From positions 15,306 through 79,305 of the forward strand of contig DASZYI010000144.1 of the NCBI GenBank assembly GCA_035545475.1: a stretch of DNA of 64,000 nt, in the 5' to 3' direction. Source of the DNA: Rhizomicrobium sp. Lineage in GTDB: Bacteria; Pseudomonadota; Alphaproteobacteria; Micropepsales; Micropepsaceae. The position numbers and the translations under genes were made by a program. The notes beneath the pieces are model-generated. The model saw nothing but the letters and a program-made list of their open reading frames with translations. It did no database searches and was not told where the DNA came from. Shown here piece by piece: positions 22,400 through 62,154 of the stretch; position 1 is the stretch's first letter, and each line of letters begins with the position of its first letter.

Positions 22400-22852
22400 A
22401 ATCGGCTTGTAACTGCCCCGCCAGCATGCCGAGCAGAAGCGTCTTCTTCTGCTCGTCCGTTCCGAAATCGCGGAACATCAGGATTTGCGGGAAGTTTCCG
22501 ACGACGGAGCTTTCGTTCTGCAGATCGTTGTGCAGGCCCAATCCCTTTGTCGCCAAATGTTCACGGATGATCGCCATGGCGAGGTTGCCGATGTTCTTGC
22601 CGCCGAATTCTTCCGGCAACGCCAGCCGCAGGAACCCGCCTTGTCGGCGCGGCGGCGCATTTCGCCCAGCAATTCTTCCCATTCCTTGCGCGGCAAGCCG
22701 CCATGTTCGAAATCGGTGCGCGCCCATTCGCGGTGGTGATCGAAGAAGCGGTCGCTATCGTCCTGTTCCTGAAGCGGTTTGATCTCCTTGTCGATGAAAG
22801 CATCGATCCGGATCAGCAAGTCTGTGATTTCCTTGGGTATCGTGAAGTCCAT
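22400..22852 (-). pseudogene. Acyl-CoA dehydrogenase, frameshifted and 3'-truncated
   Basis: MDFTIP...RRRADKAG in one frame continues as FLRLALPEEFGG...LGLHNDLQNESSVVGNFP in another (1-nt loss near 22635); homology fades near 22400. Confidence 0.85.
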
Positions 22853-22860
22853 GTTACGCT

Positions 22861-24450
22861 TCAATTTATTTTGCGGGTCCTGCCTGCCCAATACCTCTCT
22901 CTGAGTTCGCGTCTAAGCACCTTCCCGCTGGCGTTCCTTGGCAGAAGCTCAACAAAGTCTACGGTCTTGGGCGCTTTAAACCCGGCAATTCGTGAGCGGG
23001 CAAATGCGATAATATCTTCGGCAGTCGCGGAATGATTTGGTTTCAGGACAACGATTGCCTTCACAGCCTCACCCCACTTTTCATCGGGTACGCCAATGAC
23101 AGCAACTTCGGCCACGTCTGGGTGGCCATAAACTGCGTTTTCGACTTCGGCCGGATAAACGTTCTCTCCGCCGGAGATGATCATGTCCTTTACCCGGTCA
23201 TGTATGAACAGATATCCTTCTTCGTCGAGATATCCAGCATCACCCGTTCGCAACCATCCCTCTTTGTCAATTGTTTTTGCGGTTGCCTCGGGCAGATTCC
23301 AATATCCGGCCATGTTCCACGGAGATCTGGTGGCAATTTCGCCAACCTGTCCGGTGCTCAACGCGTTTCCACGCTCATCAACGATTTTGATCTCCACAGC
23401 GGGTAATGGTCTTCCGGCCGACCGCATTCGGTCGTTCCCATTTAAGTCATGATCCTCGGGAGGGAGAACCACTATCGTTCCTGCCGTCTCGGTCATGCCA
23501 TACATCTGCGCAAAGCCGCAGCCGAAAACCTCGACAGCTTCGCGAAGCAAATCCAACGGTATGGGCGAAGCGCCATATCCCAAATGCTTTACCCGCGAAT
23601 AATCTGTCGAGCGAGCGCGCGGATCGCGCAAAACAATCTGTATGGCAGACGGCACGAGAAAGAGCTTACTCACACCTTCATTGGCGATATAATCTAGAAC
23701 CTTGTGGGGATTGAATTCCCTGGCGACGACGTTTCGCGCACCATTGGCGATACCCCAAAATCCCCAACCAGATCCGCTGATGTGTGACACGGGCATTGCC
23801 ACAAGGCTTATGTCATCGGTTGTCCAGATGTTCCAATCCAGCTGTGCGGTTTTCATTATTTTGTGGGTCAGAATAAAATTGGAGTGCTTAAGCATCGCAC
23901 CTTTCGGCCGCCCCGTGGTGCCAGAGGTATAGAGCTGGATCGCGATATCGGGTGATGCAAGCGGAACGTCAGGCGGGGTGATCGGTTGCGCATCGCGCCA
24001 AGTAGCAAAGCTTTGCCATTTCGATGTCCCACCTTCCATGACCACAACGGTTTGAACATTCGGAGCATTCGACAGTATGTCACTTGCGATGCCGATAAAC
24101 TCTGGACCAACAAAAAACAATTTTGCTCTTGAATCGTTGACGATGTAGCAGACCTCTGGCGGCGCCAAACGCCAACCTATCGGCGTCGTTACCGCACCCG
24201 TTTTCGCCGCGCCAAGAAACAGCTCGAAATAGACATCGCTGTTCTTTCCGAGATAGCAGATACGGTCGCCCTTTCTTATGCCTGCCGCCAGAAGCGCATT
24301 GGCCACCTGATTGGTATGCCGATCGAACTCGGCGAAGGTGGTGTTCCGCCCCTCAAACCTGAAAGCCACTTCGTTGGGGCGCGTGCGCGCGAAGTGCGGC
24401 GGCACATCGGCGATCGTCTGCCAATCGGCTTCTTCGATCGTTCGGATCAC
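22861..24450 (-). CDS. Long-chain fatty-acid-CoA ligase / AMP-binding enzyme
   Basis: QLYTSGTTGRPKG, YGMTE, RTGDAG, DRVKDMIISGGENVYPAEVE, PRNASGKV. Confidence 0.93.
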   Translation of the reverse strand: MIRTIEEADWQTIADVPPHFARTRPNEVAFRFEGRNTTFAEFDRHTNQVANALLAAGIRKGDRICYLGKNSDVYFELFLGAAKTGAVTTPIGWRLAPPEVCYIVNDSRAKLFFVGPEFIGIASDILSNAPNVQTVVVMEGGTSKWQSFATWRDAQPITPPDVPLASPDIAIQLYTSGTTGRPKGAMLKHSNFILTHKIMKTAQLDWNIWTTDDISLVAMPVSHISGSGWGFWGIANGARNVVAREFNPHKVLDYIANEGVSKLFLVPSAIQIVLRDPRARSTDYSRVKHLGYGASPIPLDLLREAVEVFGCGFAQMYGMTETAGTIVVLPPEDHDLNGNDRMRSAGRPLPAVEIKIVDERGNALSTGQVGEIATRSPWNMAGYWNLPEATAKTIDKEGWLRTGDAGYLDEEGYLFIHDRVKDMIISGGENVYPAEVENAVYGHPDVAEVAVIGVPDEKWGEAVKAIVVLKPNHSATAEDIIAFARSRIAGFKAPKTVDFVELLPRNASGKVLRRELRERYWAGRTRKIN

Positions 24451-25700
24451 AGAACGCTTCCCAATTTCTTGGGCGAAACCAGGTGACGACTATCGGAAGC
24501 CGGCGGCATGAATTGGCCAAATGAAGAGAGCTCCTTGGATGCTTTACGGAACATACGTTCAGCACATAGCACCAGAGCGGTGGCCAAAAGCAGCAAGGAT
24601 ATGGCCAGCCACAGGCAATAAGTCTGACTGACGAATGCTTTTAAAACAAAAGCCGCGACCAACGGCCCCAATGCCAGTCCCAGAAACTGCATTGGCAAGG
24701 CAAAGGTCACCACCCTGCCTTTTGAATCGATTGCGGCGAGAAGGCCCATGAAATACGCGATGCTGAAGAGCCAGCAGAACATGAACATGCCCGTGGCGAG
24801 GCCGAACAATGCGGTCATAGAGCCCAATGCCATTCCGGCAACAACCGCTACCAAAGTTAAAAGCCCGAGAAGCAGCGGAACAGACCGGCCGAAATAACCA
24901 CCGATGCCGGCCACCACAACGCCCGAGGCCATGCCAAAGAAAGTGGAATTGGTGAGCGCCAACGATACATTATCTCGCGGTAAACCCATCGCTATGCCCA
25001 GTTGCCCCACCAAAGGCCACACGATGCCGATGGCGATATATAAGCAAAGCATTGCCGCAAGACCCAAGATACTTGCCGTTAGCGTTCTCGCATCCATCCG
25101 CTCCATTTCAGGTAACGCGCCGCCAAGAGTTGCTGTTACCGGTGCATGGGCGGGCAGCCGCACAAGGAAACCGGCAGCCAAAACAGTTACGACGCTCATG
25201 ACGTAAAATACCGCAGAGCCGTTGCCAGCGTTTGTGAGTTGCCGCACCACAGCAAAGAAAGCCATCGCCACCGCGGTATTGATAACAATCTCGATGGCGA
25301 ATATGCGGTCGGGCACCTTAACCCCCGCAAACGATCCGACCATAACCGCGATCGCCAGTCCCTCACCCGCACCTGCAATAAAGCGCAAGGCCACAAGTGC
25401 GTGATAGGAACTGATCAGCGCCGTGGCAAAATCTGCGACAGCTGCAAGCGTTATGGCTGTGAGACCAAGCAGTCTGCGATCTATTGCTCCCATAAAATAT
25501 GAAACCAGAACCGTGGCTGCCGTAATGCCGAAACTCTCTGCGGAAGCAACGAAAGCGGCCTGATAGGTCGGCAAGCCGTGAGATTGTGTTAGCGCGATCA
25601 CGATTCCCGGCATGATGATACCGATACAAGAACCGCATTCGCCGGTTCCGATCATGGAAACGATTGCCGACAGGCTATCGTATTGGTCGCGCTTTCTCAT
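24447..25700 (-). CDS. MFS transporter
   Basis: About 12 hydrophobic segments, LRFIAGAGEG motif; ATGA coupling on both sides. Confidence 0.85.
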   Translation of the reverse strand: MRKRDQYDSLSAIVSMIGTGECGSCIGIIMPGIVIALTQSHGLPTYQAAFVASAESFGITAATVLVSYFMGAIDRRLLGLTAITLAAVADFATALISSYHALVALRFIAGAGEGLAIAVMVGSFAGVKVPDRIFAIEIVINTAVAMAFFAVVRQLTNAGNGSAVFYVMSVVTVLAAGFLVRLPAHAPVTATLGGALPEMERMDARTLTASILGLAAMLCLYIAIGIVWPLVGQLGIAMGLPRDNVSLALTNSTFFGMASGVVVAGIGGYFGRSVPLLLGLLTLVAVVAGMALGSMTALFGLATGMFMFCWLFSIAYFMGLLAAIDSKGRVVTFALPMQFLGLALGPLVAAFVLKAFVSQTYCLWLAISLLLLATALVLCAERMFRKASKELSSFGQFMPPASDSRHLVSPKKLGSVL

Positions 25701-27667
25701 CCGGCGGACCGTTTCTGATTGTTGGGATGGGTAACCGCATCGTTTCTTCGAACGATCTCAAAGTCGTTCAGCCGCGGATGGCGCAGGGCCTGCCAATATT
25801 CATAGCTGCCCCACGGCGCCATGACGGCGGATCGGCCAAACTCATTCTGGTAATAGGATGCCTGACCGGGAGACATCCAAATCGTTTCGGCCAGACGTTT
25901 ATCCAAGTGAATATTGTACGCATCAAAGGCATCCTGGCGAACTTCGACGGCTTTCCAATCATTGGCTATCATGGCTTCGAGCCATTGAAGCGCATAACGT
26001 GTCTGCGTCTCGCCCCACATGACGGGATTTCCGTTTCGCGGATTGGCATTGGGGCCATAGAGCGAAAAGAAATTCGGCATGTGAGGAATCGCCACGCCCC
26101 AAAACGCGCGGGCTCCGTCGCGCGCCCATACTTGCTCAAGTGAAATGCCGTCCCGACCTTCGATCTTCATTGGCCAAAAGAATTCGTTGGCTTTGAACCC
26201 TGTAGCGAGGACGATGATATCGGCCGGTACTTTCTGGCCACTGGGGGTGACAATGGTGTTTTCTTCGATCTTGCTGATACCTTCGGAGATAAGGGTGACG
26301 TTGTCTCGCACCAGGGCATCGAACCAACCATTGTCGACGATGATTCGCTTGGCCAGCGGTGGATAATCGGGCAAGCATTTTTCCATCAGATCTGGCCGGT
26401 GCCCGATCTTGCTTTCCATATAGGCGATAAGACGGTCGCGCAGTTTCTTGTTTGCTGCGCTGACGGTGTGCTCATCCTGCCATTCCGGATCGACGCCCCA
26501 AATCGGAAAGGCATGAGGTCCGGCAATCATCCAAGCCTGAATGAATCTCGACCAATTGCGATAAAATGGAACATTGGCATCGAGCCACAGCGCTTCAGAT
26601 GGAAGTTCATCGCGATAGCCGGCGATGGGCGTTACCCAACCGGCGCTCCTCTGGAATATTGTAATACTCTTTGCGCTGGGTGCGATGTCAGGGACCAACT
26701 GCATACCGCTCGCACCAGTACCGATCACAGCCACGTGCGCGCGAGTTAAATCATACTGCGCCGTCAGTTCAGTGGTGTGGATGATGCGGCCGCGAAAGTT
26801 TTCAATGCCCGGTATTTGTGGAACAGCGGGGCGATCCAGCAATCCAACCGCCATGACGATTGCGTTGGCGTGGTGGAGCTCTTCTCCGCCGTTCTTGCTT
26901 TTGACGCGAGCAATCCATTTTCCGGCGTCTTCATTCCAGCTCAGTGCGGTGACTTCGCTGTTTAAACGGAGGTTTGGTCTCACTTCATAATGATCAAAAC
27001 ACCAGTTTAGATATTTCTCCGTATCCTTCTGCGGAGAAAAAGCGGAGCGAAATTGGTGCTGGATGCCGAAGACGTGAGAATAGATACGGCTTGGAAAATC
27101 CACTCTCGCGCCCGGGTAGCGATTTTGGTGCCAAGTTCCCCCTACGCCAGCATTTTTCTCGAACACCGTGAACGGAATGCCGGCTTGCTTGAGTTGTATG
27201 GCGGCGTTGGCGCCTTCCATGCCCGCACCGATCACGATCACGTGGAACTGCTCTAGCTGTTCGGTATCAGGCTTCTGTGACCACCGCAGGCGACGCGCCA
27301 GCGGATCGAGCGCCAGCTCTTCCGTCCAGAACTCGACTTCCTGTTCGTCGACAGGCTGCCCCACAGCGATCGACATCGCTTTGGCAAGCCGGTCCCGCGA
27401 ATGGATATCGGGCGGCTCTGACTTTCCATCGCGATAGGATTTGAGCAGATCCAATGCCTTTTTGCGAAGCACACCCATTGCTTGTTCTTCGGTCAAGCCC
27501 GGTATCTCGCCGATTGCCCCGTCGATTTTGCCGACCTTGATCTGAGCCACTTCGGTATCCGCTGTGGCATGGTAGATGAGCGCCGCGAGCACAAGCGGAT
27601 CTGCAAACGCAAGTGCCGCCTGGAGTTCGCTATCACTTGCATTTGCCAATGCTGAACTGATTATCAT
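25697..27667 (-). CDS. Baeyer-Villiger monooxygenase, long N-terminal (HAPMO-like) type
   Basis: GAGMEG, GGTWHQNRYPGARVD, GTGASG, KR motif, LATGF; fingerprint FRGRIIHTTEL (W replaced by L). Confidence 0.88.
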   Translation of the reverse strand: MIISSALANASDSELQAALAFADPLVLAALIYHATADTEVAQIKVGKIDGAIGEIPGLTEEQAMGVLRKKALDLLKSYRDGKSEPPDIHSRDRLAKAMSIAVGQPVDEQEVEFWTEELALDPLARRLRWSQKPDTEQLEQFHVIVIGAGMEGANAAIQLKQAGIPFTVFEKNAGVGGTWHQNRYPGARVDFPSRIYSHVFGIQHQFRSAFSPQKDTEKYLNWCFDHYEVRPNLRLNSEVTALSWNEDAGKWIARVKSKNGGEELHHANAIVMAVGLLDRPAVPQIPGIENFRGRIIHTTELTAQYDLTRAHVAVIGTGASGMQLVPDIAPSAKSITIFQRSAGWVTPIAGYRDELPSEALWLDANVPFYRNWSRFIQAWMIAGPHAFPIWGVDPEWQDEHTVSAANKKLRDRLIAYMESKIGHRPDLMEKCLPDYPPLAKRIIVDNGWFDALVRDNVTLISEGISKIEENTIVTPSGQKVPADIIVLATGFKANEFFWPMKIEGRDGISLEQVWARDGARAFWGVAIPHMPNFFSLYGPNANPRNGNPVMWGETQTRYALQWLEAMIANDWKAVEVRQDAFDAYNIHLDKRLAETIWMSPGQASYYQNEFGRSAVMAPWGSYEYWQALRHPRLNDFEIVRRNDAVTHPNNQKRSAG

Positions 27668-28710
27668 CGCGTCACCTGTGGGTTATAAGCCGCAGTTCGG
27701 GATATCGAGAATTGGAATTGACCTGAGTCAAGGCGATACACTCGCCTGGCTGTATCCCGGAACAGCAGCGCTTTTTCGTCGGCAGACGCACCTTTCGATA
27801 TGCGCTTAAACGCATTCCACAGCGCCGTGTAGCTGCACGAAACCTTGTCGACGGGGAAATTGCTTTCGAACATGCATCGCGCCGGGCCAAACGCCTCGAT
27901 GCAAGTTTCGACATAAGGTCTCCAAGCAGCGGCAAGCTCCTCAGACGTTACGGGCGCGCTCCGCTCATGAAAGCCGAAACCGCACATTGCCATCCCCAGA
28001 CCACCAAGTTTCATGACCACGTTTGGGCATTTCGCAAGCTGCGCAATGGAGCCTTTCCAGTCAGCAAACACACTTTCGCGATTTCCGTAGGGACCTGTGC
28101 CCAGTAGACCACCGACATGATTGGCAACGATTGAAATATTGGGGAAGGCACGCGCGAGATCGATCAACTCTGGCAATTGAGGATGATATTGCCATGCATC
28201 GAATGAGAGATTGAAATCTTCAAGTTTTGCAAAACCTTCCCGAAACCGTGCATCGGCATAGAGACCTTTTTTCGGATCGGAGTGGCTGTTGCCCACTTCC
28301 GGGCTGGCGTCCCAACCCGCCGCATGGCGAATGCCGCGAAAACGATCGGCAGCGGCCCGGACATGTGCTGCCAACACGTTTTCCACCGCAGCGCCCGTGG
28401 AAAAATCGGCGCGCCCCACGATTCCTTCGCAAATCCGCACCGCGCCATATCTGTTGCTGGCAGACATGGCCGCCACGCCGTTGGCAAATTCTGTTTCGCC
28501 CACGAATTGCAGATCGCCCACACTGTCAGCGTTGTAAAATGCCGTGCACTCGACAAACACAGTGCTTTCCACCTTGTGGCCACTGCCAATGTCCTTCAGC
28601 AGCGCGTCCATCATGTATGGGCTTATGAAGCCTGGTATCTGCGCAGGGAAATCCCACAGGTGGTGGTGCGCATCACAAATCGCCAGATCGGGTTCGATAA
28701 TGTCTTCCAT
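27664..28710 (-). CDS. Amidohydrolase_2 family protein, putative lactonase
   Basis: DAHHHLWD, FRGIRH, LSFDAW, NHVGG, KLGGLG, MFESNFPVD. Confidence 0.88.
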   Translation of the reverse strand: MEDIIEPDLAICDAHHHLWDFPAQIPGFISPYMMDALLKDIGSGHKVESTVFVECTAFYNADSVGDLQFVGETEFANGVAAMSASNRYGAVRICEGIVGRADFSTGAAVENVLAAHVRAAADRFRGIRHAAGWDASPEVGNSHSDPKKGLYADARFREGFAKLEDFNLSFDAWQYHPQLPELIDLARAFPNISIVANHVGGLLGTGPYGNRESVFADWKGSIAQLAKCPNVVMKLGGLGMAMCGFGFHERSAPVTSEELAAAWRPYVETCIEAFGPARCMFESNFPVDKVSCSYTALWNAFKRISKGASADEKALLFRDTARRVYRLDSGQFQFSISRTAAYNPQVTR

Positions 28711-28726
28711 CCGACTGACGTCCTAT

Positions 28727-30418: not shown

Positions 30419-30427
30419 TCCTACGCT

Positions 30428-51832: not shown

Positions 51833-51845
51833 TGAGGGCAGCCAT

Positions 51846-52533: not shown

Positions 52534-52578
52534 AGTATTCTGCCGGCCGGCGGCAGTGCTGACAAGCAGGTGATTGAA

Positions 52579-54310: not shown

Positions 54311-54724
54311 ATGCCTGCCGATATGACAGATGCGAAGCCCGGGGTAACGCAAATCCTGGCGGCCATCGTCGAGACTTCGCACGACGCGATTATCAGCAAA
54401 GATCTGAACGGCATCATTTCAAGTTGGAACAGGAGCGCTACGCATCTCTTTGGATACGCTCCTGATGAGATCATCGGTCGCCCGGTTACGATTCTCATTC
54501 CGCCGGATAGGCAAGATGAGGAAACACACATCCTTGGCATGGTTCGTCGCGGGGAGCGTGTGGATTCATACGAGACCATTCGGCAGCGCAAGGATGGAAG
54601 CCTTGTAGAGGTCTCCCTAACAGTATCGCCGATCAAGGATTCGGAAGGCCGAGTTGTCGGCGCTTCTAAGATCGCACGCGACATCACAGAATTGAAAAAA
54701 GCGAGGAAACAACAAGAGCTTCTA
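54311..54724 (+). pseudogene. PAS domain of a sensor kinase, truncated just before the expected kinase H-box
   Basis: AAIVETSHDAIISKDLNGIISSWN...SKIARDITELKKARKQQELL, then unrelated sequence. Confidence 0.8.
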
Positions 54725-54725
54725 C

Positions 54726-55031
54726 GGCGGCGTCGATCTGGTGTTCGACGTCATCGGCGGCGAGATCGGCAAGCAATCCGCACGTCTCATTCGAGCTGGA
54801 GGAACGGTCGTGTCCATCGTCGGTCCGCCCGTGCCGCGGCCCGATGACGGTTTGGCGGTCGACTTCGTTGTCGAGACAGATCGCGCTCAACTGACCGAGA
54901 TCGTCAACCTGGTGCGGGATGGACGATTGCGGACGAACATCGGCGATGTCTCATCTCTCGATGATGCTATCGCTGCGTTAAACCCGACCGGGCGACGCAA
55001 GGGGAAGACGATTATCCGCGTTCGTCAGTAA
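54726..55031 (+). pseudogene. C-terminal fragment of an NADP-dependent oxidoreductase (zeta-crystallin/MDR family)
   Basis: GGVDLVFDVIGGEI...LVRDGRLRTNIG...RKGKTIIRVR; no N-terminal part. Confidence 0.8.
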
Positions 55032-55496
55032 GGACGCAAGGAACAGCGCACTCGGATAGGACACCGCGCAGGCCGCAGACGCCGCGATGGCCTGGGCCAT
55101 CAGTTCATCGATTCGCTCAAGGCCGGCAACGTCAAGGATGCTGCGGCTCATTTATCCATGTTTCGATTATTGATGAGTTCTTGCCTTATCACGGGAATTC
55201 TTTCGGGCTTCGCGAATCCCCCCATTCCAACGTCATCCTAGTTGATGGCGGCTCGATAGATTTGTTCGTTCGGGTGGGAATGATCGGATCCTAGCTTCAG
55301 TTGGGCCTTGGTTGCCTGCAGAGGCCAATGTGGCGCTTTCCGGCCGTCGGCACAGATCTGCGTATCGTGTTCTTACTTCGTAAAGTTCGTGGCTTTTCGG
55401 GGTCTCGGTACTGCTCTACGTCTTCACCGTTCCTGCCATCGAAGTAAGCCGCCCTCCGCCGAGGAATCCAAAGAAGGCCGGAAAGCAAATGAATGC

Positions 55497-56021
55497 TCAA
55501 ATTTTGCGACGCGGTTTTTTTGCTTTGCGTCGCCGCTTGCCATTTGACGTCGCGGTATGAGCTCCAGACGGAAGCTCTGATATGCGCTTGACGACTTTAC
55601 CCCAATCCAAATTCAGAACGCGTTTCAAGGCAGCATAGTCTTCGCCGCCGATCCGGCTGCGCAATACGTCTTCCAAATCGCGAATCGCATTACGGGCGAA
55701 CTCGCGAATTCCCGTCGAGCGTTGCGTAAAGCCAAGAATCACGGAACGCCCGTCCGCCGGATCGTCGTGTGCGAGAAGGATCTTCTGCGCGATGAGTTGG
55801 TTCGCGATATGCCGTATCGCCTGACGCGAAAGGCGCATCTTCCGTGCGATATCGCTCGGCCTGGTCACGCCTGCCGAAACATAAAGCACCATCATGGACT
55901 GGGACTTGTTCAATGGACGAAAGCCGCCGTCCTTCACAAGGTTCTGCAGCCCGTTATCGAACCAGTCCCAGCCTTCCAGCAGGCCTGACATCAGGAAGGG
56001 GTGTCGGTCGATCCGCGGCAT
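55497..56021 (-). CDS. MarR-family regulator
   Basis: RPSDIARKMRLSRQAIRHIANQL...DDPADGRSVIL winged HTH. Confidence 0.88.
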   Translation of the reverse strand: MPRIDRHPFLMSGLLEGWDWFDNGLQNLVKDGGFRPLNKSQSMMVLYVSAGVTRPSDIARKMRLSRQAIRHIANQLIAQKILLAHDDPADGRSVILGFTQRSTGIREFARNAIRDLEDVLRSRIGGEDYAALKRVLNLDWGKVVKRISELPSGAHTATSNGKRRRKAKKPRRKI

Positions 56022-56107
56022 GGTCCCTCATCTGCAATGCCCGACGATGAGCAAGCACCGAGGGATGTAAATACCGGACGGTTCATCTGCCCACAAGTCT
56101 AGACGTC

Positions 56108-57355
56108 TCAAACCACGGGCGAGTTCGGTGGTAGTCCGATCAAAGCACGACCATGAAGCTCCGAAGCGCCATCTAGATCGTAGACGACATGGCTCGACAT
56201 CACATTGATGTCCCTGAGCGCCCGTTGCAGGGGATTGTCCAGAAAGTGTGCGCTTGAGCCGCTCGCCTCGCATGCCAGACGGATGGCTGTTCGACACAAG
56301 TCCATGGCGTAGGCGATCTGGATTCTGAGGCTTATGCGTTCCTCGACCTCCGCCAGCTTCCCGCTCTGGCCCAAAGCTACGTTTTTGCGTCCGGCATCGC
56401 GCACCAGCAATTCGGCCGTCCGCGTTTTCACGTCGGCGAGCGCGAGCCGCATCTGGGCGGCGGGTTTCTCCGCCTGCTTCAACTCGGTTCCGAACACCAC
56501 TCTTTCTGCAAGACGTGCTCGGAAATGTTCGACAGCCGCGCGTGCTGTGGCGACGGCAGGAAGCGCTGCGGTCAGCGCAAGAAACGGGAGCATCGGCATT
56601 TTGTAAATCGGATTGTCATGAAGCAGCGCGCCCGGCGCCCGCCCCTCCCGCATGTGACCGAAATTGAGCACACGATGCCCCGGTATGAAGGCATCTTCGA
56701 TGACGATGTCGTTGCTACCCGTACCGATCATGCCGTCGACGTGCCAGGTATCCAAAATCCGGACATCCGACACCGGCAAAACGAAAAACAGTACGGCCGG
56801 AGAGCTGCCACCATCTGGATCGAGTCCGGTCGCCAGCACCCAATCGGCGTGCATCACGCCGGTCCCCCACTTCCAGTGACCGGTCAGGCGATAGCCGCCG
56901 CTAACCTTCGTGACTTTTCCGGGTGGCTGAGTAACGCCCGGCGCAATGATATAAGGATACTGTCCGAAGATTTCTGCCTGCGCTTCTTCGGGAAACTGCG
57001 ACATCATCCAGTTGTGTTCGACGCAGAACGACGTCACCCAGCCGGTCGACGAACAACCTTCGCCAAGAGGAAGCATGGCGTTCACAAAGGTTTCAACGTC
57101 GAATTCCAGCCCGCCATATCTTTTGGGCACGAAGTGGTAAAACACGCCCGCGCGCCGTATCGCATTCCATGCCTCATTCACTGGACGGCGCAACCGCTCC
57201 GCTTCGCGGGTATGACCGGCGAGCAGCGGTTTGAGGGCAGTCGTGCGCTCGACCAGCATCGCTGGCGTCATTTGGGCAAGCTCGGCCCGGTTAAGCCAAT
57301 CGCCGGGTGGCGGGCTTTCCGGCCTGATGGTTTTGGCGGTGTCAACGGGGGGCAT
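56108..57355 (-). CDS. Two-component flavin-dependent monooxygenase, oxygenase subunit (group D, HsaA/HpaH-like, acyl-CoA dehydrogenase fold)
   Basis: PKRYGGLE, GCSSTGWV, GHWKWGTG, DTWHVDGMIGTGSND, NPLQRALRD, SH. Confidence 0.88.
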   Translation of the reverse strand: MPPVDTAKTIRPESPPPGDWLNRAELAQMTPAMLVERTTALKPLLAGHTREAERLRRPVNEAWNAIRRAGVFYHFVPKRYGGLEFDVETFVNAMLPLGEGCSSTGWVTSFCVEHNWMMSQFPEEAQAEIFGQYPYIIAPGVTQPPGKVTKVSGGYRLTGHWKWGTGVMHADWVLATGLDPDGGSSPAVLFFVLPVSDVRILDTWHVDGMIGTGSNDIVIEDAFIPGHRVLNFGHMREGRAPGALLHDNPIYKMPMLPFLALTAALPAVATARAAVEHFRARLAERVVFGTELKQAEKPAAQMRLALADVKTRTAELLVRDAGRKNVALGQSGKLAEVEERISLRIQIAYAMDLCRTAIRLACEASGSSAHFLDNPLQRALRDINVMSSHVVYDLDGASELHGRALIGLPPNSPVV

Positions 57356-57375
57356 CGAACGCAATCTCCATATTG

Positions 57376-57457
57376 GGAAAATATTTTACAATATGCGCCG
57401 CAGACCCGCAACCGCATACGTTTGCCCCATGACAAGAAAGGACAAATTTTTTACTAT
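57376..57457. promoter_or_regulatory. Divergent promoters TTGCGG-N17-TAAAAT (minus) and ATGACA-N17-TACTAT (plus), each overlapped by operator C
   Basis: GGAAAATATTTTAC 57376-57389; GACAAATTTTTTAC 57441-57454; ideal palindrome GTAAAATATTTTAC. Confidence 0.7.
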
Positions 57458-57487
57458 CTCGCCTGCAACCGTCCGGAGGCCAGCCCG

Positions 57488-58600
57488 ATGACCGACGACA
57501 GCAAGCTCATGCCCCTTTTTGATCCTCTTAAGATTGGCAATTTGCATCTTCCCCATCGTATTGCGATGGCGCCGATGACCAGGTTCCGATGCAACGAAGA
57601 CGGGATTCCGGCGCCATATGTAAGCGAATACTATGCGCAGCGCAGTTCCGCCGCGCTCATCGTGTGCGAATCCGTCTACACGATTCCCAGCGGCCGGATC
57701 GCGCCGCTGGCGGGAGGCCTGATAACCGAACCCCAGCGCACGGCCTGGGCGGCTGTTGCCTCCGCTGTGCACGCAAAGGGCGGACGGATCTTCCTGCAGC
57801 TCATTCATGGCGGACGCGTCTCTCATCCGCTGCTTCAACCCGGTGGCGTGCAACCCATTGCCCCCTCCGCCGTGCTCGCGGACGACAAGGTCCGGCTTGC
57901 GCAGGGATTCGTTGCACCGGTCGTGCCGCGCGCAATGGAAATCTCCGAAATCCACGAGGTGATCGAAAGTTTCGCGGTAGCGACGCGTCACGCGGCGGAG
58001 GCGGGGTTTGACGGTGTCGAGTTGCATGCGGGCAATGGATATCTGCCCTGCCAATTCCTGTCGTCGAACACCAATCTCCGGCAGGACGACTACGGCGGAA
58101 CGCTCACGAACCGCCTGCGCTTTGTTATGGAAACCCTTGAGGCGATGTGCGCCGTACGTAGTCCTGACTTCGTGGGCGTCAAGATATCGCCGGGTTTTCG
58201 CTATCACGATGCTCGCGATGAGGCGCCTGAGGAAACCTACACAGAACTGGCCAAGGCCCTTGGCAAAATGGACCTCGCTTATACCCATATTCAAATTCCG
58301 CTGGATTTCATTCAACCCGAAGGTGCTGCGTTCGATCCCGTTGCCTTGGTACGCAACCACTATCGCGGCGTTTTGCTCGCGGGCGGCAATCTCGATCGCC
58401 GCAGCGCGGCGCACATGATCGCTACAGGTGCTGCCGATGTTGCAGTGTTCGGGCGGCGGTTCATCGCTAATCCGGATCTCCCCGAGCGATTCCGCCTGGG
58501 AGCCGGCGAGACCGAACTCGATCCGGATACGCTGCATGTTCCGGGCCACAAAGGCTACATCGACTATCCTACGCTGCGTGTAGCCGGCGAACCGCATTGA
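57488..58600 (+). CDS. Old Yellow Enzyme / alkene reductase 1 (canonical H-x-x-N-x-Y)
   Basis: MAPMTR, GFDGVELHAGNGYL, NLRQDDYGG, GRRFIANPDLP, GYIDYP; start ATG 57488. Confidence 0.93.
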   Translation: MTDDSKLMPLFDPLKIGNLHLPHRIAMAPMTRFRCNEDGIPAPYVSEYYAQRSSAALIVCESVYTIPSGRIAPLAGGLITEPQRTAWAAVASAVHAKGGRIFLQLIHGGRVSHPLLQPGGVQPIAPSAVLADDKVRLAQGFVAPVVPRAMEISEIHEVIESFAVATRHAAEAGFDGVELHAGNGYLPCQFLSSNTNLRQDDYGGTLTNRLRFVMETLEAMCAVRSPDFVGVKISPGFRYHDARDEAPEETYTELAKALGKMDLAYTHIQIPLDFIQPEGAAFDPVALVRNHYRGVLLAGGNLDRRSAAHMIATGAADVAVFGRRFIANPDLPERFRLGAGETELDPDTLHVPGHKGYIDYPTLRVAGEPH

Positions 58601-58610
58601 TGGCCTGCAA

Positions 58611-58635
58611 CCGCGCCCGCTAGAAGCGGACGCGG
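58611..58635. terminator. Hairpin between convergent OYE1 and TBDR3
   Basis: CCGCGCCCGC-TAGAA-GCGGACGCGG, 9/10 bp. Confidence 0.45.
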
Positions 58636-60824
58636 CCCTCAAGCGAGATCGTGCGCGTCTCATCGAGGAAAACCACGCCCGTCGCCGGCGTCGAAAGCGG
58701 CCACAGATAGCTGAACGATTCGGTCAGATTGTTGGTAAGATTCTTTCCGACCAACGCCACGGACCATCTGTCATCCGTTTGCGCCAGCTCGATGCGCGTA
58801 TCGAACTTGGCGTAGCTGCCCTGCGTTCCATAATACGGACTGAGATCGCTTGCTGTTGCGAATGTGCTGCGGAACGAAACGATGCCGGTCAATGACAGTT
58901 TCAGATCGTCATTAAGAGGCTCGTGGAAATTGCCCTGCACATTCCCGCTCCATTTGGAAGCGCCCGGCAATGGGGTTCCTGCGATGTTGTTGGTCGTTGC
59001 CGAGCAGGGTGGCTGTGGCTGGGTGGCAAGACAGGCCGCGCCCGGAAAGTCGTCATAGGCGGCCTCCAAATAGGCGGCAGATCCAGAAAGCTCCAGATTG
59101 TCCAGTGCCAGCCACTGTAGCGACGCTTCAACGCCTTTGCCTGTTGCCCGCGCGGCGTTTTTCGTGATGAACGTTGCCTGGGACGGATCGTAGTCGGATA
59201 CCTGAAGATCGCGAAACTTGGTATCATAAAGGTCTATATCGGCGACCACCCGTCCATCGAACAAGGTGGCCTTGGCGCCGATTTCATAGTTGGTCGATTT
59301 CTCGTCGCCGAAGACAAAGGAATCCGGCGTCACCGTTCGGGTGTTGCTTACAAAACCACCGGCCTTGGACCCCCGGCCATAAGTTGCATACACCATAATG
59401 CCGGGCTGGATGTCGTATTGCACCGTGGCGGACGGATCGAGATTGTCTTCCGTCAACGTGGTCAGAGGAATGGATCGAGGCGCGGCAATCGGTATGCCGA
59501 AATCGAGATACTCATCGAAGGCTGCCCGCTTATGATTTTCGGTGTAACGGAGGCTGCCGAGGATGCGCAGGTCCTCTGTGACATGGAACGTCCCCTGGCC
59601 AAAGAGCGACCATGTGGAGGAATGCTGACGGAAGGCGATATGGGTCTGACCCACCAGCGTGTGGCCAAAGAGATCGTAACGCGAAGGATTGAGCAGGTTG
59701 TAGTCGCTTTGGTCGTAATAGGCTCCAACGATGTATTCGAAACGCTCTCCCGTCGGCGACAACAGGCGCACTTCCTGCGAGACCTGGTTGAACTTTTCGT
59801 TGAAGGTCGAAAGCCAACTTTCCGGATCGCCGGCCGACCCGCCCACAAATTTGTTGTCCTTGAAAGCCGAGAAGCCAGTGATCGACGTTAGCGTGAAATC
59901 TCCGAGCTGAAGATTTGCAGTGGTCGAGCTGTTGTAAGAATCCTGGGTGTCGGTTTCGGGCGTTCCAAACGGCGAGGCCGCGTCTTTCTCGTCGTCGAGA
60001 ACCTGAGGCGCCGCAGGCGCCACCCGAATCTGGTTGGTGCCAAGCGTGCGGAAGTCTGCATACTCGAACTTCGTCGTTATGTTGAAATAGTCCGTCGGCT
60101 CGTATTTGAGCGAAATTCGGCCAAGGTTGTCTCGCAACCTCGGGTCGTTTGTGCCCGTAGCCGTATTGCCAATGTAACCGTCTTCATAGGTGAATTTGAG
60201 CGCGATCCTGGCGCTCAGCGTGTCCGTAAGAGGACCCGAAACATAGCCAAACGCATCGATACCGCTGCGTGAGAAATTGTAGGCGGCCGTGGCACTGGCC
60301 TCAAAATGATCTGTCGGGCCTGCGGTGATGATGTTCACCGCCCCGGCAGCGGTGTTCTTGCCGAGAAGTGCTCCTTGCGGGCCGCGCAGCACTTCGATGC
60401 GCTCCACATCGAAAAAGGGGGCCATGAACTGACGATTGCGGCCACCATATATGCCATCCTCGTACAGGCTCACTGATTGTTCGAAAGCGTAATTGGCCGC
60501 TGGTGAACCGAAACCGCGGATGTAAATGGCGTCGTTACCGGGCGAAGGCTGCACGAGAAGATTGGGAACGTAATTCATAAGCGCCTTGAAATCGCTCGTA
60601 TGGAAGTTCTCGAGCTGGCGTCCCTGGAAGACCTCCATGGAAATCGGGACGTCTTGGACATCCTGTTCGCGCTTCTGGGCGGTGACGACAACGGTTTCGA
60701 TTCCCTCGGTAACCGCAGATGGTGTCGGGACATCTTGCGCCGGCTGCGCAGAGGCCGACATTGGCCAACCTGCGACCGCGATTGCCACCGTTGTCAACAA
60801 TGTCGGCAATACCGTCTTGTTCAT
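58620..60824 (-). CDS. TonB-dependent receptor 3
   Basis: Signal peptide, ETVVVTAQKR, RIEVLRGPQGALLGKNTAAGAVN, C-terminal Phe. Confidence 0.93.
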   Translation of the reverse strand: MNKTVLPTLLTTVAIAVAGWPMSASAQPAQDVPTPSAVTEGIETVVVTAQKREQDVQDVPISMEVFQGRQLENFHTSDFKALMNYVPNLLVQPSPGNDAIYIRGFGSPAANYAFEQSVSLYEDGIYGGRNRQFMAPFFDVERIEVLRGPQGALLGKNTAAGAVNIITAGPTDHFEASATAAYNFSRSGIDAFGYVSGPLTDTLSARIALKFTYEDGYIGNTATGTNDPRLRDNLGRISLKYEPTDYFNITTKFEYADFRTLGTNQIRVAPAAPQVLDDEKDAASPFGTPETDTQDSYNSSTTANLQLGDFTLTSITGFSAFKDNKFVGGSAGDPESWLSTFNEKFNQVSQEVRLLSPTGERFEYIVGAYYDQSDYNLLNPSRYDLFGHTLVGQTHIAFRQHSSTWSLFGQGTFHVTEDLRILGSLRYTENHKRAAFDEYLDFGIPIAAPRSIPLTTLTEDNLDPSATVQYDIQPGIMVYATYGRGSKAGGFVSNTRTVTPDSFVFGDEKSTNYEIGAKATLFDGRVVADIDLYDTKFRDLQVSDYDPSQATFITKNAARATGKGVEASLQWLALDNLELSGSAAYLEAAYDDFPGAACLATQPQPPCSATTNNIAGTPLPGASKWSGNVQGNFHEPLNDDLKLSLTGIVSFRSTFATASDLSPYYGTQGSYAKFDTRIELAQTDDRWSVALVGKNLTNNLTESFSYLWPLSTPATGVVFLDETRTISLEGRVRF

Positions 60825-60907
60825 GGCATCCCTCCCGCGGTCAAAGCTCTTATGGCTTCGATCTTGTTTGCGTCTCGTGGAAGTCTACGAGCACACGGCG
60901 AATGTTG

Positions 60908-61022
60908 GCAAAATATTTTACATTGTCAATCTGCGTTCGAAAATAAGATTTCGAAGTATCTCGAGGGTCGCGTTCGGCCAGGAACCAGTTGACAGAATTG
61001 TCCGAAGGTAAAATAATTTCAC
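60908..61022. promoter_or_regulatory. Divergent TBDR3/OYE2 control region with operator C copies (60908-60921, 61008-61021) and promoter TTGACA-N17-AATAAT (60989-61017)
   Basis: GCAAAATATTTTAC (13/14) and GTAAAATAATTTCA (11/14). Confidence 0.7.
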
Positions 61023-61041
61023 AACCTGTGGAGGTTCACCG

Positions 61042-62154
61042 TTGCGCAACTACCGCTTTTTGCTGTCGGCCGGCCGGGTTGGCGACATCGTGCTGCGCAA
61101 CCGCATGATCATGTCGCCGATGACCCGCTTCCGGGTCACCGAAACCGGGGTACCTAGCGATCTCAACATCATTTATTACGGCCAGCGCGCTTCGGCGGGG
61201 TTGATCATCAGCGAGGGCACATACAGCGAACCGAAAGGGCGGCTAACGCCCCGCACGGCTGGCCTACACACCGAAGAACACGTTTCAGCCTGGCGTGCGA
61301 TCACAGACGCGGTGCACGAAAAGCAGGGGCGCATGTTTGTGCAATTGTGTCATGGAGGCCGCGTATCTCATCCCCTGCTCCAGCCCGATGGCGAACTCCC
61401 GGTTGCCCCATCCGCTATCGCCAAAACAGGACAGGTAAGGATTCGCGAGAATGAGACCGAGGGCGTGATTAAGGTCGATGCGCCGATCCCCAGAGCGTTA
61501 GACCTGCCGGAAATCACTTCCATAGTCGAAGAATTCGGGCGCGCTACCGAACGCGCGGTTACGGCCGGATTTGATGGTGTCGAACTGCATGCGGCCAGTG
61601 GCCTGTTGCATCAGCAATTTCTTACCACGACTGCCAACGTCCGCTCCGATCGCTACGGAGGATCGCCTTTGAACCGGTGCCGCTTTGTCATCGAGACACT
61701 CGAAGCTATGTCAGCCGTTCGCGGATCGGGTAGAGTCGGCATAAAGATCGCACCGAACTTTGCCTACAACGGGACCGATATGCCCATGCGCGATATCATC
61801 GACACGTATTCGCTTCTCGTCGAAGAGCTGAAACGTCTCGACCTTGGATACGTGCACGTGCAGTACCCACCGTGGGGCCTGTTTTCCGGGCCCAAAAGTT
61901 TTAACCCGATAATGTTCGTCCGCCCGTTGTACAAGGGCACCTTGATCGGCGCAGGCGAGTTCAACCGCGATACAGCTGAGGATATGCTGGCAGCAGGCCA
62001 TAGCGACTTCATAGCGTTTGGCCGACGTTTTATTGCCAACCCGGATCTTCCGGCACGCATTGCCGCCGGTGCTGAAGAAAATGCCTGGGATGAGGCGACT
62101 CTCTATACACCGACGCCCGAGGGATTTATCGACTATCCAACTCTGAGCCACTGA
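61042..62154 (+). CDS. Old Yellow Enzyme 2, non-canonical active site (H-x-x-S-x-L)
   Basis: MSPMTR, GFDGVELHAASGLL, NVRSDRYGG, GRRFIANPDLP, GFIDYP; TTG start after GGAGG. Confidence 0.9.
   Translation: MRNYRFLLSAGRVGDIVLRNRMIMSPMTRFRVTETGVPSDLNIIYYGQRASAGLIISEGTYSEPKGRLTPRTAGLHTEEHVSAWRAITDAVHEKQGRMFVQLCHGGRVSHPLLQPDGELPVAPSAIAKTGQVRIRENETEGVIKVDAPIPRALDLPEITSIVEEFGRATERAVTAGFDGVELHAASGLLHQQFLTTTANVRSDRYGGSPLNRCRFVIETLEAMSAVRGSGRVGIKIAPNFAYNGTDMPMRDIIDTYSLLVEELKRLDLGYVHVQYPPWGLFSGPKSFNPIMFVRPLYKGTLIGAGEFNRDTAEDMLAAGHSDFIAFGRRFIANPDLPARIAAGAEENAWDEATLYTPTPEGFIDYPTLSH

What the first reader, a model, noticed from the sequence alone, without database searches (positions are those of the whole stretch)
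22400..62154. Three stacked TonB-receptor-anchored oxidative utilization cassettes, each with a private regulator and operator
Best candidate for an undescribed system. Cassette A (22.4-39.9 kb): TBDR1, MFS, Lrp pair, operator TCCGATCTA-N12-TAGATCGGA. Cassette B (40.5-54.0 kb): TBDR2, MFS, TetR, operator TTTTKRCAG-N2-CTGYMAAAA. Cassette C (55.5-62.2 kb): TBDR3, MarR, operator GTAAAATATTTTAC. I noticed each motif only inside its own cassette, and it overlaps most recognisable promoters. Cassette borders coincide with debris (truncated ACAD, IS1182 end, PAS/oxidoreductase chimera). The logic parallels polysaccharide-utilization loci but with oxygenases as payload, suggesting mobile import-and-oxidize units for hydrophobic small molecules.
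Basis: partly seen in the sequence, partly recalled or inferred. Interest (0 to 1): 0.8.

Follow-up and report, generated by a model that had tools for sequence, protein, structure and literature searches.

The report
Three receptor-led catabolic loci on island
A strain-specific genomic island in a soil alphaproteobacterium carries three neighbouring gene clusters, each pairing an outer-membrane TonB-dependent importer and oxygenases with its own repressor and operator; the layout is real but of a kind already described in lignin- and steroid-degrading sphingomonads.

Summary
There are three TonB-dependent receptors (TBDRs). Each sits among oxygenase and oxidoreductase genes with its own one-component regulator: an Lrp/AsnC pair, a TetR, or a MarR-like protein. 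Each has its own palindromic operator, found only in that cluster's promoter regions.

A scoring matrix trained only on two orthologous loci places its top 7 window hits in cassette-B intergenic DNA. Cassettes B and C recur as conserved, separately located syntenic blocks in other alphaproteobacteria, with the operator conserved. Cassette A has no syntenic relative.

Debris at the borders is confirmed: a frameshifted ACAD, an IS1182 fragment, and PAS and ADH fragments.

Corrections:
- The region from 21422 to beyond 64000 is one tRNA-Lys-integrated island. It is absent from 99.6%-identical relatives and sits at lower depth in the source soil metagenomes.
- The "unknown" ORF in cassette C is spurious and hides a second OYE gene on the other strand.
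- The exact consensus GTAAAATATTTTAC does not occur.

These are independent import-and-oxidise regulons. However, the design matches the DDVA locus of Sphingobium SYK-6 and the CUT loci. No cassette shows mobility signatures of its own. They are new members of a known kind; interest is moderate.

The parts
21404..21421 (-). 18-nt 3'-terminal remnant of tRNA-Lys(CUU), marking the left junction of the island (att-like)
   Evidence: Contigs L094, L096, L097 and L099 are 99.6-99.9% identical to the window up to 21421 and then diverge. They carry a full tRNA-Lys there. The remnant is unique in the window.
21422..64000 (.). Genomic island of at least 42.6 kb; the right end lies outside the window
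   Evidence: Relatives lack it and have rodA and PBP2 after the tRNA instead. GC is 54-58% against 61% in the core. Depth in the source soil metagenomes is 3-7x against 10-18x for the core, and contigs break at 21421. Island proteins are near-singletons in the protein collection.
21713..22069 (-). HTH_17 (AlpA/excisionase-like) gene next to the island junction
   Evidence: Pfam HTH_17, E = 3e-5
22311..22891 (-). Frameshifted, truncated acyl-CoA dehydrogenase pseudogene (distal end of the cassette A operon)
   Evidence: Translations in two frames
22861..36801 (-). Cassette A operon, in order of transcription: amidohydrolase_3 35068-36801; P450 33652-34935; SDR 32873-33748 (start uncertain); TBDR1 30428-32677; BVMO 28727-30418; amidohydrolase_2 (lactonase-like) 27664-28710; BVMO 25697-27667; MFS 24447-25700; acyl-CoA ligase 22861-24450
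   Evidence: Pfam and NCBIfam. The last six genes are separated by <=16 nt or overlap by 4 nt. No promoter-like or terminator-like site lies in the internal gaps.
36890..36919 (.). Lrp box 1, TCCGACCTA-N12-TAGATCGGA, in the divergent amidohydrolase_3 / lrp intergenic region
   Evidence: It overlaps a promoter-like element, TTGACA-17-TATTTT, on the minus strand at 36935-36907.
37058..38103 (+). Two overlapping Lrp/AsnC regulator genes (37058-37642 and 37639-38103; 29% identical to each other)
   Evidence: Pfam
38137..39033 (-). PhyH-family Fe(II)/2-oxoglutarate dioxygenase
39124..39153 (.). Lrp box 2, TCCGATCTA-N12-TAGATCGGA (perfect), between PhyH and the SDR
   Evidence: It overlaps a promoter-like element at 39111-39139 on the plus strand.
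39161..39934 (+). SDR oxidoreductase (cassette A)
40139..40361 (.). IS1182-family transposase gene fragment (the A/B border)
   Evidence: Megablast hits to annotated IS1182 transposases
40532..53988 (.). Cassette B: Rieske alpha 40532-41917(-); TBDR2 42388-44796(+); CMD 44850-45401(-); TetR 45464-46210(-); SDR 46284-47048(-); MFS 47033-48442(-); AcoA-like E1 alpha 48667-49632(+); E1 beta 49664-50671(+); AcoC-like 50717-51832(+); CMD 51846-52448(-); Rieske alpha 52570-53988(+)
   Evidence: Pfam and NCBIfam. L002 has the same 11 genes in the same order and orientation at 55-87% identity, and L003 has a variant.
41966..41985 (.). TetR operator site (Rieske1 side of the divergent region)
   Evidence: 21.1 bits
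42120..42139 (.). TetR operator-like site (middle of the Rieske1/TBDR2 region)
   Evidence: 18.1 bits
42318..42337 (.). TetR operator site just after a TTGACT -35-like hexamer upstream of TBDR2
   Evidence: 17.2 bits. The orthologous site is present in L002 and L003.
45427..45446 (.). TetR operator site between tetR and the CMD gene
   Evidence: 22.4 bits. The orthologous site in L002 is at 6928.
48504..48523 (.). TetR operator-like site (MFS side of the MFS/acoA region)
   Evidence: 18.1 bits
48598..48617 (.). TetR operator site (acoA side), after a TTGACC -35-like hexamer
   Evidence: 23.9 bits. Two orthologous sites occur in each of L002 and L003.
52514..52533 (.). TetR operator site between CMD2 and Rieske2
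   Evidence: 19.4 bits. The orthologous site in L002 is at 13630.
54311..55031 (+). Debris at the B/C border: a PAS-domain fragment (54311-54847) and a zinc-ADH C-terminal fragment (54741-55031)
55497..62154 (.). Cassette C: MarR-like regulator 55497-56021(-); HsaA/HpaH-like flavin monooxygenase 56108-57364(-); OYE2 57488-58600(+); TBDR3 58620-60824(-); OYE1 61042-62154(+)
   Evidence: The module is conserved in L004-L008.
57376..57389 (.). MarR-type operator GGAAAATATTTTAC in the divergent HsaA-like / OYE2 region
   Evidence: A related box lies upstream of the HsaA-like gene in L005.
60908..60921 (.). MarR-type operator GCAAAATATTTTAC next to a TTGACA -35-like hexamer of the TBDR3 promoter
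   Evidence: The same TTGACA + box arrangement occurs in L005.
61008..61021 (.). Weaker third box, GTAAAATAATTTCA, overlapping the promoter-like element of OYE1

Best explanation
From position 21422 onward the window is a strain-variable genomic island integrated into the 3' end of a tRNA-Lys gene of a soil alphaproteobacterium. Its cargo includes three adjacent but independent catabolic loci.

**How each locus works.** In each, a TonB-dependent outer-membrane transporter takes up a scarce organic substrate, probably bulky or hydrophobic. In A and B an MFS permease carries it across the inner membrane. Co-encoded oxygenases and oxidoreductases start its breakdown.

Each locus is kept off by its own one-component regulator: an Lrp/AsnC pair in A, a TetR in B and a MarR-like protein in C. 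The regulator binds palindromic operators that overlap the promoters of that locus only. The substrate or an early metabolite is inferred to release the regulator.

**Likely chemistry (inferred).**
- A: an alicyclic or terpenoid-type route. P450 hydroxylation, SDR oxidation to a ketone, Baeyer-Villiger lactonisation, lactone hydrolysis, CoA activation, then a second BVMO or beta-oxidation.
- B: Rieske mono- or dioxygenation followed by ThDP-dependent, acetoin-dehydrogenase-like cleavage of an alpha-hydroxyketone or diketone.
- C: hydroxylation of a phenolic compound by an HsaA/HpaH-type monooxygenase, plus ene or quinone reduction by two OYEs.

**Shown and inferred.** Shown are gene content, operator distribution and conservation, modular recurrence of B and C, and island status. 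Inferred are the repressor logic, the substrates and the transport function.
For: - **Domains.**. AcoC passes its NCBIfam equivalog cutoff (414 against 307 bits). The monooxygenase in C is HsaA-like by PDB comparison (2rfq, 1e-54).
- **Operators.** They are private and non-random.
- **Independent operator test.** A PWM trained only on L002 and L003 places its top 7 of 64,000 positions in cassette-B intergenic DNA. These score 17-24 bits against a null maximum averaging 13.6.
- **Promoter overlap.** Operators overlap or adjoin TTGAC-type -35-like hexamers, and the arrangement is conserved across loci.
- **B recurs alone.** L002 has all 11 genes at 55-87% identity with a different left neighbour. 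L003 has a variant.
- **C recurs alone.** L004-L007 and Caulobacter mirabilis carry it: TBDR 61-64%, HsaA-like 68-73%. The OYE1-like gene is 62-64% in L004 and C. mirabilis but only 32% in L005-L007. The MarR-like regulator is 60-67% in L004-L006, and C. mirabilis has a MarR of only 35%.
- **Receptors are not duplicates.** The three TBDRs are only 25-31% identical to each other.
- **Island status.**
- **Experimental precedent.** In Sphingobium SYK-6, DdvT (TBDR), DdvK (MFS) and DdvR (a MarR-type repressor of ddvT and ligXa) work this way (PMC6874591).
Against: - There is no expression, binding or transport data for any of these genes.
- Cassette A has only two operator copies, no orthologous locus to confirm them, and a 195-bp gap without a box upstream of TBDR1. 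Lrp-type proteins are often activators.
- Cassette C has no inner-membrane transporter and no ring-cleavage enzyme.
- No ferredoxin or reductase for the P450 and Rieske enzymes lies in the cassettes. The only candidate in the window is a ferredoxin reductase in the core, at 4380-5630.
- The MarR-like assignment rests on weak profile matches: Pfam E = 5e-5 and below the cutoff, and the NCBIfam Saro_0803 family at 30 against 200 bits.
- L004 and L008 carry different boxes at the orthologous promoters of module C.
Confidence: 0.72

Rival explanations
1. Each cassette is an autonomous mobile import-and-oxidise element that moves on its own.
For: Pseudogene or IS debris lies at every cassette border. 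B and C occur in different genomic neighbourhoods in other bacteria. Homology between the window and L002 stops exactly at the Rieske1 stop codon, next to the IS1182 fragment.
Against: No cassette has flanking inverted or direct repeats, an intact transposase or an integrase. The IS1182 piece is about 220 bp. Module C sits among housekeeping genes in Caulobacter mirabilis, which fits ordinary vertical descent plus recombination. The only demonstrated mobility signature is the single tRNA-Lys junction of the whole island.
Confidence: 0.1
2. The three clusters are successive stages of one pathway for a single complex substrate and only look separate; a higher-level regulator coordinates them.
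For: They are adjacent on one island and at similar depth in the metagenomes. All are oxidative. None contains a complete route to central metabolism.
Against: They have distinct regulators and operators, with no shared motif between cassettes. B and C occur without each other or A in other genomes. In the 265-kb contig that holds a B variant, the TBDR3-like gene lies about 16 kb away in a different cluster.
Confidence: 0.1
3. The TBDRs are ordinary iron or metal receptors that lie next to catabolic genes by chance, and the palindromes are generic AT-rich promoter features.
For: Source databases label the homologues "iron complex outer-membrane receptor". Oxygenases need iron.
Against: TBDR-enzyme synteny is conserved across genomes at 56-78% identity. 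The TBDR promoter carries the same operator as the enzyme promoters. The receptors have no STN domain and no FecIR pair beside them, unlike the FecIR-coupled receptors seen in L003 and L092. Motif counts far exceed the shuffled expectation.
Confidence: 0.05

Closest known systems
DDVA uptake/catabolism locus of Sphingobium sp. SYK-6 (ddvT TBDR, ddvK MFS, ddvR MarR-type repressor, ligXa/ligZ/ligY) (PMC6874591)
   Same: It has a TBDR, an MFS permease and a local one-component repressor that controls both the receptor and a Rieske-type oxygenase gene, together with catabolic enzymes. It occurs in an alphaproteobacterium. This is the same logic as cassettes A and B, and as C apart from the MFS.
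   Different: The enzymes and presumably the substrates differ. The regulator families in A (Lrp pair) and B (TetR) differ. No sequence comparison with the Ddv proteins was made here. Function here is predicted only.
CUT loci (carbohydrate utilisation loci containing TBDRs) of Xanthomonas and aquatic bacteria (PMC1790865), and Bacteroidota PULs
   Same: The design is the same: a TBDR, an inner-membrane transporter, degradative enzymes and a dedicated regulator in one locus, with many such loci per genome.
   Different: The payload here is oxygenases and dehydrogenases, not glycoside hydrolases. No SusD-like lipoprotein is present. The substrates are non-carbohydrate.
Sphingomonad steroid/bile-salt clusters (Sphingobium sp. 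Chol11 cluster 2: TBDR Nov2c232, an MFS, CoA ligase, ACAD, Rieske monooxygenase, amidases) and the estradiol-induced TBDR of Novosphingobium tardaugens (10.1101/2021.05.19.444901)
   Same: A TBDR and an MFS are embedded with a CoA ligase, ACAD, Rieske monooxygenase and amidohydrolase-type genes for a hydrophobic substrate. This resembles the gene mix of cassettes A and B.
   Different: No orthology was tested. Cassette A uses BVMOs and a P450, and cassette B has an acetoin-dehydrogenase-like complex that the paper does not mention.
Acetoin dehydrogenase enzyme system (AcoA/AcoB/AcoC)
   Same: Cassette B encodes an E1 alpha, an E1 beta and a lipoyl + alpha/beta-hydrolase AcoC. The AcoC passes the NCBIfam equivalog cutoff.
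   Different: There is no E3 (AcoL) and no sigma-54 activator AcoR in the locus. The complex is embedded with a TBDR, an MFS, two Rieske oxygenases and two CMD proteins under a TetR. This suggests a larger alpha-hydroxyketone substrate than acetoin.
tRNA-integrated genomic islands / integrative elements
   Same: The junction is exactly inside the 3' end of a tRNA gene. An Xis/AlpA-like gene lies next to the junction. GC is lower than in the core. The island is absent from near-identical relatives and shows subpopulation depth.
   Different: The integrase, the intact tRNA copy with its direct repeat, and any transfer genes lie outside the window and were not seen.

Membership tests
TBDR-linked catabolic locus (DDVA-locus / CUT-locus type) | A TonB-dependent receptor (Plug + 22-strand barrel) encoded inside the locus | tested here: met
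   Pfam Plug and TonB_dep_Rec_b-barrel are present in all three receptors
TBDR-linked catabolic locus (DDVA-locus / CUT-locus type) | An inner-membrane transporter in the same locus | tested here: inconclusive
   MFS_1 is present in A (24447-25700, 38 bits) and B (47033-48442, 161 bits). None is present in C.
TBDR-linked catabolic locus (DDVA-locus / CUT-locus type) | Substrate-degrading enzymes co-located and syntenic with the receptor | tested here: met
   Synteny is conserved for B and C, but not demonstrated for A.
TBDR-linked catabolic locus (DDVA-locus / CUT-locus type) | A local regulator controls both the receptor gene and the enzyme genes | tested here: inconclusive
   In silico only. 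The same operator lies at the TBDR promoter and the enzyme promoters in B and C. In A the TBDR lies inside an operon whose only recognised promoter carries the box. No binding or expression data exist.
TBDR-linked catabolic locus (DDVA-locus / CUT-locus type) | TonB-dependent uptake of the catabolised substrate | not testable with these tools
   This needs uptake and growth assays with deletion mutants
Bacteroidota polysaccharide utilisation locus (PUL) | A SusC-like TBDR paired with an adjacent SusD-like lipoprotein, plus CAZymes | tested here: not met
   No SusD or glycoside hydrolase domain was found in any gene of 22-62 kb
Acetoin dehydrogenase enzyme system | E1 alpha, E1 beta and AcoC (lipoyl + alpha/beta hydrolase) | tested here: met
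   Pfam E1_dh, Transket_pyr/Transketolase_C and Biotin_lipoyl + Abhydrolase_1. NCBIfam NF011457 scores 414 bits against a cutoff of 307.
Acetoin dehydrogenase enzyme system | A dedicated E3 (AcoL) and the AcoR activator in the operon | tested here: not met
   No such genes lie in 40.5-54 kb; the locus regulator is a TetR
tRNA-integrated genomic island | A junction within a tRNA gene, and absence from close relatives | tested here: met
tRNA-integrated genomic island | An integrase and a second att repeat with the intact tRNA at the far end | not testable with these tools
   The far end is beyond position 64000. The window holds only tRNA-Pro at 15507.
Composite transposon / autonomous cassette | Flanking IS copies or terminal repeats around each cassette | tested here: not met
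   Only one IS1182 fragment of about 220 bp is present. No shared border repeats were found among the intergenic regions.

The most novel reading that the evidence does not exclude
Module B is conserved in several uncultured alphaproteobacteria. It comprises a TBDR, an MFS, a TetR with a 20-bp operator at about 7 sites, two alpha-only Rieske oxygenases, two CMD-family proteins, an SDR and an AcoABC-like ThDP/lipoyl complex. It may encode an undescribed catabolic route. In this route a receptor-imported aromatic or isoprenoid compound would be oxygenated to an alpha-hydroxyketone or 1,2-diketone side chain. An acetoin-dehydrogenase-like complex would then cleave that side chain oxidatively. This would be a C-C cleavage strategy not yet assigned to such substrates.
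Probability: 0.2. Interest if true: 0.6.

Novelty: new member of a known kind. Interest (0 to 1): 0.4.

Why it matters
The region gives three cleanly delimited regulator-operator-receptor-enzyme sets. They could serve as test cases for TonB-dependent uptake of non-carbohydrate, non-siderophore organic substrates, which is still documented for only a handful of compounds.

Modules B and C are conserved across alphaproteobacteria, and C occurs in the cultured Caulobacter mirabilis. Their substrates are unknown. Their predicted repressor-operator pairs are ready-made candidates for biosensors and for inducer screens.

The window also shows how such loci accumulate side by side on a tRNA-integrated island that only part of a natural soil population carries.

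Tried and rejected
1. Exact look-ups of the window's own TBDR1 and of P0001 and P0002 returned nothing.
2. Megablast of 22-64 kb against plasmids found only the IS1182 fragment and short conserved stretches, so this is not a known plasmid region.
3. A genome-contig scan with BVMO1 gave a best hit of 56% and no cassette-A-like synteny. The only partial matches were BVMO + ligase in L009 and lactonase + BVMO in L042.
4. A metagenome scan with TBDR1 found only 28% relatives. The context of the 37% relative P0004 is unrelated, and that of P0005 is only loosely similar, with TBDR-SDR-P450.
5. The 425-aa ORF 57386-58663(-) had no Pfam, NCBIfam or PDB match and an Arg-rich sequence. It was rejected as spurious.
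6. A tblastn search with TBDR2 against plasmids gave at best 40% identity. The one context inspected, the 37% hit on the Sphingomonas paeninsulae plasmid, is a different TBDR stack and not module B.
7. A literature search for the cassette-B gene combination found no paper.
8. Only DNA metagenome runs hold the sequence, so there is no RNA data to test induction.
9. A weak PWM-B hit in the cassette C intergenic region (60987, 15.1 bits) is within the null range and was not counted.

Full report
**1. What is in the sequence**

The first 21.4 kb is ordinary alphaproteobacterial core DNA. It holds ahcY, a PAS histidine kinase, a ferredoxin reductase, addB and addA, tRNA-Pro, an EAL protein, a HAD hydrolase and ribF. 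Its GC content is 61%.

From about 22 kb the GC content falls to 54% and the gene content changes.

Cassette A is a tightly packed minus-strand operon. In order of transcription it encodes:
- amidohydrolase_3
- P450
- SDR
- TBDR1
- BVMO
- amidohydrolase_2 (lactonase-like)
- BVMO
- MFS
- acyl-CoA ligase
- a frameshifted ACAD

Divergent from this operon are two overlapping Lrp/AsnC genes. A PhyH dioxygenase and a second SDR follow them.

Cassette B encodes:
- Rieske alpha(-)
- TBDR2(+)
- CMD, TetR, SDR and MFS (all -)
- AcoA-like, AcoB-like and AcoC-like genes (all +)
- CMD(-)
- Rieske alpha(+)

Cassette C encodes a MarR-like regulator(-), an HsaA/HpaH-like monooxygenase(-), OYE2(+), TBDR3(-) and OYE1(+).

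The ORF I first took as a 425-aa unknown between TBDR3 and the monooxygenase is an Arg-rich artefact. The real gene there is a second OYE on the opposite strand, at 57488-58600, with a GGAGG ribosome-binding site.

The three receptors are only 25-31% identical to each other.

**2. The operators**

*Motif A.* TCCGATCTA-N12-TAGATCGGA occurs twice, at 36890 and 39124. The chance expectation is 0.03. Both copies lie in divergent intergenic regions and overlap promoter-like hexamers. The half-sites pair nowhere else in the window.

A stricter test was possible because orthologous loci exist. I built a 20-bp matrix only from the sites in L002 and L003 and scanned the whole window. The 7 best positions were 48598, 45427, 41966, 52514, 42120, 48504 and 42318, scoring 17-24 bits. 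All lie in cassette-B intergenic DNA, while the best score in random sequence averaged 13.6 bits.

Cassette-B intergenic DNA is about 1.1 kb of the 4.7 kb of island intergenic DNA listed. This placement is therefore not a side-effect of AT-rich spacers.

*Motif C.* The quoted 14-mer has no exact copy. Two 1-mismatch copies lie at 57376 and 60908, against 0.00 expected, and a weaker copy at 61008.

Because OYE2 reads on the plus strand, 57376 now lies in a divergent promoter region. The site at 60908 directly follows a TTGACA hexamer upstream of TBDR3.

*Cross-cassette check.* A search for 9-mers shared among all island intergenic regions found runs of consecutive shared words only within a cassette. 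Those runs are exactly these three motifs. Words shared between cassettes are isolated singletons.

**3. Do the cassettes exist separately?**

*Cassette B: yes.* A 13.8-kb metagenome contig (L002, TBDR 78% identical) has all eleven genes in the same order and orientation at 55-87% identity. It also has the operator at every orthologous promoter. Its left neighbour is an acyl-CoA ligase gene, not cassette A.

Nucleotide homology to the window begins exactly at the Rieske1 stop codon, beside the IS1182 fragment. In the window, module B has therefore been cut there.

L003 (TBDR 56% identical) is a variant that adds a P450, a ThuA protein and an extra SDR. It again has the operator next to TTGAC -35-like hexamers.

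*Cassette C: yes.* L004, L005-L007 (an alphaproteobacterial MAG) and Caulobacter mirabilis (L008) carry the module:
- TBDR at 61-64% identity
- HsaA-like gene at 68-73%
- OYE1-like gene at 62-64% in L004 and L008, but only 32% in L005-L007
- MarR-like regulator at 60-67% in L004-L006; C. mirabilis instead has a MarR only 35% identical

In C. mirabilis the module sits beside housekeeping genes.

L005 keeps the TTGACA + GTAAAA-N-ATTxxC arrangement at both the TBDR and the HsaA-like promoters. L004 and L008 have different boxes.

*Cassette A: not shown.* Its TBDR has almost no relatives; the next best are 59% (partial), 42% and 37%. Scans anchored on BVMO1 and on TBDR1 found only gene pairs and never the block.

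**4. The island**

RibF has identical copies on 17 metagenome contigs. Four of them align at 99.6-99.9% identity to window 15728-21421 and diverge exactly after 21421.

In those contigs a tRNA-Lys(CUU) gene follows, and then rodA and a PBP2 gene. The window keeps only the last 18 nt of that tRNA, at 21404-21421, and this remnant is unique in the window. An AlpA/Xis-like HTH_17 gene follows 290 bp later.

The window's own island proteins are singletons or nearly so among 15 billion sequences. RibF and the core reductase, by contrast, have tens of near-identical copies.

In the four soil-metagenome runs that hold the sequence, depth falls from 10-18x in the core to 3-7x in the island. Contigs also break at 21421.

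All three cassettes are therefore cargo of one tRNA-Lys-integrated island of at least 42.6 kb, carried by part of the population. Its far end, and any integrase, lie beyond the window.

The debris at the cassette borders points to a mosaic built by successive rearrangements. It does not point to self-mobile cassettes, because no cassette has terminal repeats or a transposase or integrase of its own.

**5. How it most likely works**

Operators overlap or adjoin the -35 and -10 regions of promoters in front of both the receptor and the enzyme genes. This arrangement is the classical signature of ligand-released repression for TetR and MarR proteins; that is established family knowledge, and inference here. 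For the Lrp pair the direction of control is less certain.

The chemistry is inferred from the families present.
- **Cassette A.** The combination of a P450, an SDR, a BVMO (PtlE-like, 291 bits), an amidohydrolase_2 lactonase-like protein, a CoA ligase and a second BVMO is the textbook order for alicyclic or terpenoid ketone degradation.
- **Cassette B.** It joins two alpha-only Rieske oxygenases to a complete AcoABC-type E1/E2 set. The oxygenases are only distantly related to phthalate dioxygenase, CntA and GbcA. The AcoC passes its equivalog cutoff. This combination suggests oxidative cleavage of an alpha-hydroxyketone larger than acetoin.
- **Cassette C.** It joins an HsaA/HpaH-type phenol hydroxylase component (PDB 2rfq, 1e-54) to two NemA-like OYEs.

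Electron-transfer partners are not encoded in the cassettes. The only candidate in the window is the core ferredoxin reductase at 4380-5630.

**6. Comparison with what is known**

The architecture is that of the DDVA locus of Sphingobium sp. SYK-6. There the TBDR DdvT, the MFS DdvK and the MarR-type repressor DdvR sit with ligXa, ligZ and ligY. DdvR represses both ddvT and ligXa (PMC6874591).

The same design was generalised earlier as CUT loci (PMC1790865). It also appears in sphingomonad steroid clusters that hold a TBDR, an MFS, a Rieske monooxygenase, a CoA ligase, an ACAD and amidases (10.1101/2021.05.19.444901).

Stacking of such loci is also common:
- The 265-kb contig that holds the B variant has six TBDR genes in two 22-kb stretches.
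- One of these stretches includes a cluster of a MarR, a SnoaL protein, a luciferase-like monooxygenase, a TBDR, an MFS and EthD proteins.
- A Sphingomonas paeninsulae megaplasmid shows two more receptor stacks.

The region is not a PUL in the strict sense, because it has no SusD and no CAZymes.

I found no paper describing the cassette-B gene combination.

**7. Verdict**

Its functional logic, with private regulons and modularity of B and C, is supported by comparative evidence.

The claims of an undescribed kind of system and of cassette-level mobility are not supported. These are new, uncharacterised members of a known kind, sitting on a tRNA-Lys island. Interest is moderate.

The most promising lead is the conserved module B and its unusual enzyme set.

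Noticed in passing
window 57386-58663 (-) versus 57488-58600 (+): The long minus-strand ORF is an Arg-rich artefact. The real gene is a second OYE (Oxidored_FMN, 223 bits) on the plus strand, 47% identical to OYE1. This makes 57365-57487 a divergent promoter region.
   Followed up: yes
window 21685-21697, 22205-22217, 62218-62227: A short repeat, GAGGCTCGACATC (10-13 nt), occurs twice around the Xis-like gene near the island's left end and once after cassette C. It may be chance or a binding site of the island's recombination machinery.
   Followed up: no
window 4380-5630 (-): A BphA4/putidaredoxin-reductase-type ferredoxin reductase lies in the core genome. It belongs to a common cluster of 45 members. 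It is the only candidate electron-transfer partner in the window for the island's P450 and Rieske oxygenases, which lack their own.
   Followed up: partly
window 25697-27667 (-): The second BVMO has an N-terminal extension of about 140 residues before the flavin-binding domain, with no Pfam match. This may be a wrong start codon or an extra domain.
   Followed up: no
window 62520-62981 and 63056-63547 (+): Two Hsp20 small heat-shock genes follow cassette C and still lie inside the island.
   Followed up: partly
window 16336-17574 and 19947-20369: In the near-identical relatives the called genes here are a 350-aa acyltransferase_3 (probably 16508-17560 in the window) and a 140-aa MaoC dehydratase. 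The 412-aa ORF has no Pfam hit and probably starts too early.
   Followed up: no
L003 and L092 (same 265,528-bp ENA contig, about 16 kb apart): This contig carries a dense array of TBDR loci of two regulatory types: FecI/FecR-coupled receptors with STN domains, and repressor-coupled (TetR or MarR) catabolic receptors. It is a useful contrast set for classifying TBDR loci.
   Followed up: partly
window 54675-55341: Depth in the soil and rhizosphere metagenomes rises to 14-83x over the ADH C-terminal fragment. Many loose ends fall at 54725. This piece is shared with other, more abundant genomes.
   Followed up: no
window 60987-61006: A palindrome-like sequence, AGTTGACAGAATTGTCCGAA, lies in the TBDR3/OYE1 region. 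It resembles the TTGACnTTGTCAA boxes seen at the orthologous promoters of L004 and scores 15 bits with the cassette-B matrix. It may be a second regulator's site or chance.
   Followed up: no
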